Below, piece after piece: positions 8,918-9,825 of a stretch of 64,000 nucleotides of DNA. Made by a program: the position numbers and the translations under genes. Below the pieces are notes generated by a model that saw only the letters and a program-made list of their open reading frames with translations, searched no databases and was not told the origin of the DNA. Origin of the DNA: Escherichia coli (lineage in GTDB: Bacteria; Pseudomonadota; Gammaproteobacteria; Enterobacterales; Enterobacteriaceae). Each line of letters opens with the position of its first letter. The stretch's first letter is position 1. The stretch is from assembly GCF_030013595.1 (NCBI RefSeq), contig NZ_CP122768.1; one strand, given 5' to 3'.

Positions 8918-9825
8918 GTAGCAAAATTCTCGGTAACGTCTGGGATGCATGTGCCGCGTATGGAGTCAAAGGTGCAAAGCTGATGATCATGGCGCGTCTG
9001 GCTGATTATTCGAATGATGACGGGGTGTGTTATCCCGGTGTTGAAACAATATGCCGACAGCTTGGGTTGGGAGAAAGCACAGTAAGAACAGCAATTTCAG
9101 AGCTGGAGGCTGATGGCTGGCTGACGCGTCAGTCACGCCGCAAAGGTAATCGTAATACGTCCAATCTTTATCATCTGAATGCTGATCGGCTTGAACAGCT
9201 TGCCAGAACGGAGCGGGATAAGGTCGCAGAACTAAAACAGCAGCGCAGACTTTCAGTACTACGTGACCCGTCAAAATCTGAACCGTCAGAATCTGAATGT
9301 TCAGGTGTGTTTGACCCTTCAGATTCTGGCAAAAAAACGGTTTTGACCCTTCAGAATCTGGACCCAGATCCACAAGGTTTAAAACATGATCCGCAAGTAA
9401 ATTCAAAACATGATCCGCAAGATATTGGCGCATCCGCTGACGCGTCTGCACCAGCGAGCTCTGCCCGACAGGAATATTCACCGGAATTTGAACAGGCCTG
9501 GCAGGAATATCCCAAACGTGCTGGTGGTAATTCCAAGTCGGCAGCCTTCAAAGCCTGGAAAGCCCGTCTCAGGGAGGGAATAAAACCGGAGACCATGCTT
9601 GATGGTGTGAGACGTTATGCCGCTTGGGTACGTGCTACAGGAAATACCGGCACACAGTTCGTGAAGCAGGCTGCGACGTTCTTTGGACCCGATCGTCACT
9701 TCGAAGACTTCTGGCAACAGCCAGCCGCTCCCGGAGGTGGGCGACAGCGACAGGTCGATGTCCTGGCTGGCCTGGGAGCCATGTCTGACAAATTCGGTAA
9801 ATCCAGTGACAAATTGACATTCTGA
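8914..9825 (+). CDS. Replication initiator (lambda O-like; winged-helix N-terminus, ori embedded)
   Basis: GTG start with GGGAGG ribosome-binding site; N-terminal DNA-binding region; central low-complexity linker encoded by iteron repeats. Confidence 0.65.
   Translation: MSSKILGNVWDACAAYGVKGAKLMIMARLADYSNDDGVCYPGVETICRQLGLGESTVRTAISELEADGWLTRQSRRKGNRNTSNLYHLNADRLEQLARTERDKVAELKQQRRLSVLRDPSKSEPSESECSGVFDPSDSGKKTVLTLQNLDPDPQGLKHDPQVNSKHDPQDIGASADASAPASSARQEYSPEFEQAWQEYPKRAGGNSKSAAFKAWKARLREGIKPETMLDGVRRYAAWVRATGNTGTQFVKQAATFFGPDRHFEDFWQQPAAPGGGRQRQVDVLAGLGAMSDKFGKSSDKLTF
9268..9421. repeat. Putative replication origin iterons inside the O-like gene
   Basis: Four near-palindromic repeats tcaRAWtctgR (about 9271, 9286, 9318, 9350) plus two copies of aaaacatgatccgcaag (9380, 9405). 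Confidence 0.5.

What the first reader, a model, noticed from the sequence alone, without database searches (positions are those of the whole stretch)
9268..9421. Replication origin iterons embedded in the O-like initiator gene
Four copies of a near-palindromic 11-mer (tcaRAWtctgR) and two copies of aaaacatgatccgcaag lie inside the initiator coding sequence, encoding a Ser/Pro/Asp-rich linker. This mirrors the lambda arrangement where ori iterons sit inside O.
Basis: partly seen in the sequence, partly recalled or inferred. Interest (0 to 1): 0.4.

Follow-up and report, generated by a model that had tools for sequence, protein, structure and literature searches.

The report
Probable prophage origin inside initiator gene
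The repeats are real and are very probably the replication origin of a phiP27-like E. coli prophage, lying inside its own initiator gene as in phage lambda; this is an expected arrangement, here in an initiator family nobody has tested.

Summary
Four copies of TCARAWTCTGR (window 9271, 9286, 9319, 9351; 0.28 expected by chance) extend to 20-mers. GATCCRCAAG occurs three times, not two, as a 24-bp AT-rich repeat at 9367-9422. All lie in the 303-aa gene 8914-9825: winged-helix HTH_36 N-domain, disordered linker, helical C-domain. The gene sits between a cI/cro region and DnaC-like and DnaB-like genes.

The repeats act at the DNA level:
- Copy 4 is read in a different reading frame from copies 1-3, and this holds in five other genera.
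- Third-codon-position identity is 0.78-0.91 in the repeats against 0.49 in the N-domain.
- All 65 distinct related viral loci carry 4-9 copies at this position, about 360 times the density in the rest of each locus.
- The motif follows the N-domain across several unrelated C-domains, and two other N-domain types fused to this C-domain carry their own repeat sets.

The best reading is a lambda-style origin: iterons bound by the initiator's own N-domain, with an adjacent unwinding element. No experiment supports this yet. The protein is not a lambda O (PF04492) family member. An IS629-like element splits the loader gene in this copy. The result is a new member of a known kind, of modest interest.

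The parts
8914..9825 (+). Replication initiator gene (303 aa). It has an N-terminal winged-helix domain (aa 1-88), a long helix (aa 90-117), a disordered linker (aa ~118-185) and a helical C-domain (aa 186-270).
   Evidence: Pfam HTH_36 at 8.9e-12. phrog_270 'replication initiation protein' at 2.5e-79. The AF2 model has pLDDT >90 in both domains and 46-61 in the linker.
9262..9281 (+). Iteron 1, core TCAAAATCTGA at 9271-9281, reading frame 0.
9277..9296 (+). Iteron 2, core TCAGAATCTGA at 9286-9296 (perfect palindrome), reading frame 0. It lies 15 bp after iteron 1. This 15-bp unit varies from 1 to 7 copies between strains.
9310..9329 (+). Iteron 3, long form TTTGACCCTTCAGATTCTGG, reading frame 0 (FDPSDSG).
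9342..9361 (+). Iteron 4, long form TTTGACCCTTCAGAATCTGG, reading frame 2 (LTLQNL). It matches iteron 3 at 19 of 20 bases but is translated in a different frame.
   Evidence: The frame-2 copy is kept in Klebsiella, Salmonella, Enterobacter and Citrobacter relatives.
9367..9422 (+). 24-bp AT-rich repeat x2.5, each unit starting GATCCRCAAG (9367, 9388, 9412). This is the proposed DNA-unwinding element or a second recognition element.
   Evidence: The least stable 40-mer of the gene is 9374-9413, 70% AT. Third-position identity is 0.91, reaching 1.00 at 9358-9384.
9423..9825 (+). Mosaic joint and the shuffled C-terminal domain (IGASADAS...), presumed to contact the helicase or its loader.
9836..9921 (+). 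5' piece of the DnaC-like helicase-loader gene, cut by the IS.
   Evidence: The alignment to phiP27 breaks at 9921/9922. phrog_22964 hits both pieces.
9922..11231 (-). IS629-like IS3-family insertion sequence, 1310 bp, with a 3-bp target duplication GAA.
   Evidence: The IS name comes from my own recall of the terminal repeat; no database comparison was made.
11232..12027 (+). 3' piece of the DnaC-like loader gene (AAA+ domain; internal ATG at 11269).
   Evidence: Pfam IstB_IS21 at 4.5e-15, phrog_50 at 2.9e-86, NCBIfam DnaC at 4.5e-38
12024..13415 (+). DnaB-like replicative helicase gene.
   Evidence: Pfam DnaB_C at 1.9e-73. The start is placed by analogy with phiP27 L19.

Best explanation
Window 9262-9422 is the vegetative replication origin of a phiP27-type lambdoid prophage, embedded in the linker-coding part of its own initiator gene. 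Shown: the repeats, their conservation at the DNA level, and their co-inheritance with the N-domain. Inferred: dimers of the initiator's N-terminal winged-helix domain bind the 9-bp palindromic core CAGAWTCTG of four iterons. Two iterons sit in tandem 15 bp apart, and two long-form iterons follow at 33 and 32 bp. The resulting lambda 'O-some'-like complex would strain the adjacent 24-bp AT-rich GATC-containing repeats (9367-9422) so that they melt. The C-terminal domain would then bring in the phage's DnaC-like loader and DnaB-like helicase, encoded immediately downstream. Rightward early transcription runs through the site, as it does in lambda. Placing the origin in a stretch that encodes a disordered linker leaves the DNA free to carry cis signals. 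It also makes the N-domain and its binding sites one recombination cassette that sets replicon specificity.
For: (1) The repeats exceed chance: 5 hits against 0.28 expected, and 3 against 0.31. They form the only local multi-copy repeat cluster in 5600-16000 outside the IS.
(2) The signal is in the DNA, not the peptide. Iterons 3 and 4 match at 19 of 20 nt but are read in frames 0 and 2. The frame-2 copy persists in 5 genera at about 75% amino-acid identity and in 23 of 65 viral loci.
(3) Synonymous sites are constrained. Third-position identity is 0.49 in the N-domain (aa identity 0.90), 0.78 in the iterons (aa identity 0.68), 0.91 in the GATC repeats and 0.60 in the C-domain. Ser codons in the linker are TCA/TCT in 76 of 85 cases, against 31 of 124 outside it (Fisher p = 2e-21; the counts are not independent).
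(4) Conservation is universal. All 65 distinct loci have 4-9 copies in gene nt 270-520, at 2.32 per 100 nt against 0.0064 elsewhere in the same loci.
(5) The repeats travel with the DNA-binding domain. The same motif follows the N-domain into genes with several unrelated C-domains and different downstream genes. The same C-domain fused to two other N-domain types has different repeat sets at the same spot. The mosaic joint lies 2 nt after the last repeat.
(6) The context fits: cI-like repressor, cro-like gene, initiator, DnaC-like loader, DnaB-like helicase.
(7) The layout parallels annotated lambda. In both, the iterons begin at gene nt 349, have dyad symmetry, fall in mixed reading frames, and are followed directly by the least stable 40-mer of the gene (PMC7466680).
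(8) The AF2 model places the repeats exactly under the low-confidence linker between two confident domains, and the N-domain resembles dimeric winged-helix DNA binders.
Against: No binding, unwinding or replication experiment exists for this family.

Most iteron copies are in frame and encode a PSxSE peptide repeat, so slippage and protein-level selection contribute to some of the pattern.

The AT-rich element is modest. It is 70% AT with dG -48.0, and another 40-mer in the gene scores -48.3. Lambda's equivalent is 75% AT with dG -44.9.

The GATC clustering is not unusual for this window: there are 4 such clusters in 64 kb.

No DnaA box lies nearby.

Very high nucleotide identity at 9343-9429 across genera could partly reflect recent recombination rather than constraint.

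In this particular prophage the loader gene is split by an IS, so the origin may not fire here.
Confidence: 0.8

Rival explanations
1. The repeats are only a slippage-prone, low-complexity protein linker (PSxSE units) with no cis-acting DNA role.
For: 355 of 378 copies are in frame 0. The 15-bp unit varies from 1 to 7 copies between strains, as expected for slippage. The encoded segment is predicted to be disordered.
Against: The same 20-mer is kept in a second reading frame across genera. Third-position identity exceeds amino-acid identity in the iterons, 0.78 against 0.68. Ser codons are fixed as TCA and TCT although synonymous sites elsewhere are near saturation. The core is palindromic. 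The amino acid at the second Ser position varies (F, T, I, N, P) while the DNA stays within 1-2 changes.
Confidence: 0.06
2. The repeats are initiator-binding sites, but they serve regulation (autorepression, copy control or handcuffing) or incompatibility. Strand opening and helicase loading occur elsewhere.
For: Iterons in plasmids double as control elements (own knowledge; review PMC4980987). The adjacent AT-rich tract is only marginally unstable.
Against: No other repeat cluster or strongly AT-rich candidate lies in the replication module between 5600 and 13500. The AT-rich stretches at 14200-14400 and 15400-15600 have no repeats. The most constrained DNA is the AT-rich repeat directly next to the iterons, which is the lambda layout.
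Confidence: 0.09
3. The conservation reflects a recombination hotspot at the domain boundary. Homology maintained by repeated exchange would explain it, without a protein-binding function.
For: The mosaic joint sits at 9423. Nucleotide identity peaks just 5' of it.
Against: This does not explain the palindromic cores, the multiple copies, the different repeat set for each N-domain type, or conservation of the motif in genes whose C-domains are unrelated.
Confidence: 0.03

Closest known systems
Phage lambda ori inside gene O (four 18-19-bp iterons plus an AT-rich tract; O-some)
   Same: In both, the origin lies mid-gene, directly after the N-terminal DNA-binding domain, and the iterons start at gene nt 349. 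Both have four iterons with internal dyad symmetry, copies in different reading frames, the least stable DNA directly 3' of the iterons, and a separable C-terminal domain (PMC7466680).
   Different: There is no detectable sequence similarity between the proteins (BLASTP) or the iterons (ATCCCTCAAAACGAGGGA against TCAGAATCTGA). The Pfam families differ: PF04492 for lambda O, PF13730 here. Spacing is 15/33/32 bp here and 20/24/23 bp in lambda. The partners here are a phage DnaC-like loader and the phage's own DnaB-like helicase, not lambda P with host DnaB.
Stx-phage origins of the 933W / Wegrzyn-lab 'P27' type (six lambda-type iterons)
   Same: The iteron number varies between related phages and lengthens the initiator protein. 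Recoding experiments there showed that the extra iterons matter for replication (PMC7466680).
   Different: Those origins have lambda-type O proteins and iterons. Despite the shared name, GenBank phiP27 (NC_003356) gene L17 is the type seen here, at 95.7% identity.
Phage phiP27 gene L17 and its 56 full-length E. coli prophage homologues
   Same: They share the same gene, iterons and GATC repeats, with one extra 15-bp unit in phiP27.
   Different: They are annotated only as 'helix-turn-helix domain-containing protein' or 'hypothetical', and no origin is annotated. In the window copy, an IS lies in the adjacent loader gene.
P22 gene 18 / ori with the gene 12 DnaB-type helicase (own knowledge, not checked here)
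   Same: It is a lambdoid module whose origin lies inside the initiator gene and which brings its own DnaB-family helicase.
   Different: No comparison was made here. P22 has no DnaC-like loader gene, to my recollection.
Iteron plasmid origins (pSC101, F, R6K, P1 oriR) with winged-helix Rep proteins
   Same: They share direct repeats bound by a winged-helix initiator encoded in cis, and an adjacent AT-rich unwinding element. In P1 oriR and oriC the unwinding region also contains GATC (own knowledge; PMC4980987).
   Different: Plasmid iterons lie outside the rep gene, Rep proteins have two winged-helix domains, and DnaA boxes are usual. None is found here.

Membership tests
Lambda O-type initiator / ori-lambda | The N-terminal domain belongs to Pfam PF04492 (Phage_rep_O). 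| tested here: not met
   There is no PF04492 hit for the full-length protein at E<=0.01, or for the C-terminal part (aa 171-303) at E<=1. Lambda O itself hits at 5.7e-36. BLASTP against lambda O finds nothing significant.
Lambda O-type initiator / ori-lambda | Several iterons with dyad symmetry lie inside the initiator gene, 3' of the DNA-binding domain. | tested here: met
Lambda O-type initiator / ori-lambda | An AT-rich, easily melted tract lies directly 3' of the iterons. | tested here: inconclusive
   The least stable 40-mer of the gene is 9374-9413 (70% AT), but only by 0.3 kcal over another site.
Lambda O-type initiator / ori-lambda | A lambda P-type helicase loader is encoded downstream. 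| tested here: not met
   The downstream genes are DnaC/IstB-like AAA+ and DnaB-like.
Lambda O-type initiator / ori-lambda | The initiator binds the iterons and the segment supports replication. | not testable with these tools
   This needs EMSA or footprinting and a mini-replicon assay.
HTH_36 (PF13730) phage replication initiators (phrog_270) | The profile match is above the curated threshold. | tested here: met
   PF13730 scores 45.1 bits against a cut-off of 25. phrog_270 hits at 2.5e-79 over residues 2-302.
Iteron-type origin (general) | Three or more directly repeated sites are conserved among relatives and co-vary with the initiator's DNA-binding domain. | tested here: met
   65 of 65 loci have 4-9 copies. 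The motif follows the N-domain across several unrelated C-domains. Other N-domain types have other repeats.
Iteron-type origin (general) | The constraint acts on the DNA independently of the coding sequence. | tested here: met
   Copies occur in two reading frames. There is a third-position identity excess and a Ser codon bias.
DnaD-like C-terminal (helicase-loading) domain | Fold or profile similarity to the DnaD C-domain. | tested here: inconclusive

The most novel reading that the evidence does not exclude
The most strongly constrained DNA is not the iterons but the 24-bp GATC-headed AT-rich repeats (9367-9422). They may be a second, specific recognition element. They could be a Dam-methylation/SeqA-gated unwinding element, or single-strand binding sites for the initiator or loader. 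That would give this lambdoid origin family an oriC- or P1-oriR-like methylation checkpoint. In addition, the strain-to-strain variation of 1-7 tandem iterons could tune origin strength or incompatibility between co-resident prophages.
Probability: 0.2. Interest if true: 0.45.

Novelty: new member of a known kind. Interest (0 to 1): 0.3.

Why it matters
This result provides a precise, testable origin for phiP27-type prophages: four iterons, their core motif and an adjacent candidate unwinding element. These prophages include Stx2e- and Stx2a-converting phages and about 1% of complete E. coli genomes. Their initiator is currently annotated only as 'helix-turn-helix domain-containing protein'. 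Replication of Stx phages drives toxin gene dosage (PMC7466680), so knowing the origin and its specificity determinant is useful for studying induction, superinfection and incompatibility. The comparative pattern shows that lambda's origin-in-the-linker design extends to HTH_36 initiators that show no detectable sequence similarity to lambda O, and it offers a simple way to annotate such origins. It also flags a naming trap: the experimentally studied 'P27' origin is lambda-type and is not this one.

Tried and rejected
- BLASTP of the protein against lambda O found no meaningful alignment.
- Pfam PF04492 membership was not met.
- NCBIfam gave only a sub-threshold PaaX hit.
- A PDB sequence search found only weak FadR/PaaX winged-helix hits at E about 0.04.
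- Foldseek on the full model found generic MarR/TFE-type winged helices at E >= 2e-3. This supports the fold class only.
- Literature searches for phiP27 ori, for the iteron sequences and for in-gene origins of HTH initiators found nothing on this family. The 'P27' paper concerns a lambda-type origin.
- A DnaA-box scan found none near the site, and the window total equals chance.
- The GATC clustering was tested as a signal and is not exceptional: 4 clusters in 64 kb.
- A promoter and terminator scan of 8600-9990 found nothing above the shuffle expectation.
- A search for another iteron cluster in the early region found none.
- A first motif scan of the viral loci used a mistyped 10-mer and was discarded. 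It was redone correctly.

Full report
**Observation**

The 11-mer TCARAWTCTGR occurs at 9271, 9286, 9319 and 9351 on the + strand. The perfectly palindromic copy is also counted on the - strand, which gives 5 hits. Dinucleotide-preserving shuffles expect 0.28 hits and never reached 5. The copies extend to 20-mers at 9262, 9277, 9310 and 9342, with spacing 15, 33 and 32 bp.

The second repeat is real as well (20-mers at 9378 and 9402). Tandem Repeats Finder reports it as a 24-bp unit x2.5 at 9367-9422. These are two of the three highest-scoring tandem arrays in the whole window.

**Setting**

The repeats lie in ORF 8914-9825 (+), 303 aa. Its N-terminus matches Pfam HTH_36, and the whole protein matches phrog_270 'replication initiation protein'. 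Upstream are a cI-like S24 repressor (5703-6395, - strand), a cro/YdaS-like gene, and Rha- and Ash-like genes. Downstream are a DnaC/IstB-like AAA+ loader and a DnaB-like helicase. This is a lambdoid early-right replication module.

The closest phage is phiP27 (gene L17, 95.7% nucleotide identity). 56 of 5426 complete E. coli genomes carry the full gene, and the best match is a porcine ETEC strain at 99.9%.

**Is the signal in the DNA or in the peptide?**

Iterons 1-3 are read in frame 0 (PSKSE, PSESE, FDPSDSG). Iteron 4 matches iteron 3 at 19 of 20 nt but is read in frame 2 (LTLQNL). I fetched the genes from Klebsiella, two Salmonella, Enterobacter and Citrobacter prophages at about 75% amino-acid identity. 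All keep five cores, with the last one in frame 2.

I made a codon-aware alignment of seven diverged sequences and measured identity by region:

| Region | Third-position identity | Amino-acid identity |
|---|---|---|
| N-domain | 0.49 | 0.90 |
| Iterons | 0.78 | 0.68 |
| GATC-repeat region | 0.91 (1.00 at 9358-9384) | 0.85 |
| C-domain | 0.60 | 0.80 |

In six phages whose N-domains are only 55-64% identical, synonymous codons in the N-domain are near saturation: 24-43% of codons are the same at four- to six-fold degenerate residues. Yet the linker's Ser codons are TCA/TCT in 76 of 85 cases, against 31 of 124 elsewhere. That Fisher test is not phylogenetically independent. Even so, a purely protein-level repeat cannot explain these results together.

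**Conservation and co-variation**

A scan of viral contigs with an N-domain profile gave 80 loci with 65 distinct linker sequences (N-domain identity 61-100%). Every one has 4-9 cores in gene nt 270-520, at 2.32 per 100 nt, against 0.0064 per 100 nt in the rest of the same loci. 23 of the 65 have copies in more than one reading frame. The spacing modes are 15, 33, 32 and 48 bp.

The motif follows the N-domain. Phages Flotzy, SfIV, KpF5, YeP2, phiNP and Kp4866-6 carry it although, as a group, they have several C-domain types unrelated to the window's, and different downstream genes. Kp4866-6, the most divergent, has TCAAAATTTGA. Both half-sites are changed symmetrically there, as expected for a dimer site, but this rests on one lineage only.

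Conversely, 21 phage records and about 350 E. coli genomes share only the C-domain, and the match starts at query nt 510. That is window 9423, 2 nt after the last repeat. In those genes two other N-domain types occupy the 5' half, and each brings its own repeats to the same position:
- GTGCA-N-ATTCAC-type repeats x4, plus GAACCAGTCA x3, in PhiR49_2.
- GRAAACCC-NN-TTTCG x4 at non-triplet spacing, plus 12-bp tandem repeats x4, in Stx1_14040 and relatives.

So the DNA-binding domain and the repeats form one cassette, and the design of iterons followed by short AT-richer repeats recurs.

**Protein architecture**

An AlphaFold2 model built from a 61-sequence alignment gives a winged-helix domain (aa 1-88) and a long helix (aa 90-117) at pLDDT >90. 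A low-confidence linker follows (aa ~118-185, pLDDT 46-61), then a helical C-domain (aa 186-270, pLDDT >94). The repeats encode exactly the low-confidence linker.

**Comparison with lambda**

In the annotated lambda record the four iterons start at gene O nt 349, which is the same offset as here. Their spacing is 20, 24 and 23 bp, so they also fall in mixed reading frames. The least stable 40-mer of gene O (39126-39165, 75% AT) directly follows iteron 4.

Here the least stable 40-mer of the gene is 9374-9413 (70% AT), directly after iteron 4, but its margin over another site is small. The lambda architecture of iterons plus an AT-rich tract in the middle of O is described in PMC7466680.

The proteins show no BLASTP similarity. 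The window protein misses PF04492, which lambda O hits at 5.7e-36. The element therefore works like ori-lambda but is not a member of that family.

**Mechanism proposed**

All steps below are inferred. Initiator dimers bind the CAGAWTCTG cores. The multi-dimer complex distorts the DNA, and the adjacent 24-bp AT-rich repeats open. The C-domain recruits the phage's loader-helicase pair. I put confidence in the origin reading at about 0.8.

The rivals are a pure peptide or slippage repeat (0.06), regulatory binding sites with unwinding elsewhere (0.09), and a recombination hotspot (0.03).

**Caveats**

There are no experiments on this family. The 'P27' origin studied by the Wegrzyn laboratory has lambda-type iterons and is a different replicon from GenBank phiP27 L17.

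The GATC clustering is not statistically unusual, and no DnaA box is nearby. High identity at 9343-9429 could partly reflect recent exchange.

In this prophage an IS629-like element (9922-11231, target duplication GAA) splits the loader gene. The origin may therefore be silent here unless the internal start at 11269 yields a working protein.

**Verdict**

This is a new, untested member of the well-known class of origins that lie inside the initiator gene. Interest is modest (0.3).

Noticed in passing
window 9922-11231: A 1310-bp IS3-family element (IS629-like by my recall of its terminal repeat), with a 3-bp target duplication GAA, is inserted after about codon 29 of the DnaC-like loader gene (9836-9921 plus 11232-12027). 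The prophage's replication module is probably impaired.
   Followed up: partly
window 9423: There is a sharp mosaic joint here. 21 phage records and about 350 E. coli genomes share only the C-terminal domain, starting 2 nt after the last repeat, while the N-domain and repeats are exchanged as a unit.
   Followed up: yes
window 9264-9296, and proteins P0056, P0002, P0015, P0026, P0035, P0023, P0029: The 15-bp tandem iteron unit (PSxSE) varies from 1 to 7 copies among E. coli strains, with a mode of 3. The window has 2. P0093 looks like an iteron-to-iteron deletion.
   Followed up: yes
L003 2342-2492; L004 1335-1493: Two other N-domain types fused to the same C-domain carry their own iteron-like sets plus short tandem repeats at the equivalent position. 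These are candidate origins of PhiR49_2-type and Stx1_14040-type phages.
   Followed up: partly
PMC7466680 versus NC_003356 (L001): The experimentally studied 'P27' origin has lambda-type iterons, whereas the GenBank phiP27 replication gene L17 is the HTH_36 type seen here. The shared name could mislead annotation.
   Followed up: partly
window 9436-9449: A GC-rich palindrome GCTGACGCGTCTGC (core GACGCGTC) lies just 3' of the AT-rich repeats, at the start of the shared C-domain. It is present in all three initiator types. Whether it belongs to the origin is unknown.
   Followed up: no
window 8678-8917: A small conserved ORF (79 aa, phrog_1153, unknown function) overlaps the initiator start by 4 nt and appears to be translationally coupled to it.
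   Followed up: no
window 37736-37778: A tandem repeat of period 19, 2.3 copies, TRF score 56, comparable to the origin repeats. It was not examined.
   Followed up: no
L014 (Klebsiella phage Kp4866-6), gene nt 334-389: The most divergent N-domain homologue (49-55% identity, depending on the comparison) has the iteron TCAAAATTTGA, with both half-sites changed symmetrically relative to TCAGAATCTGA, and GATCCGTCA x3 at 12-bp spacing.
   Followed up: partly
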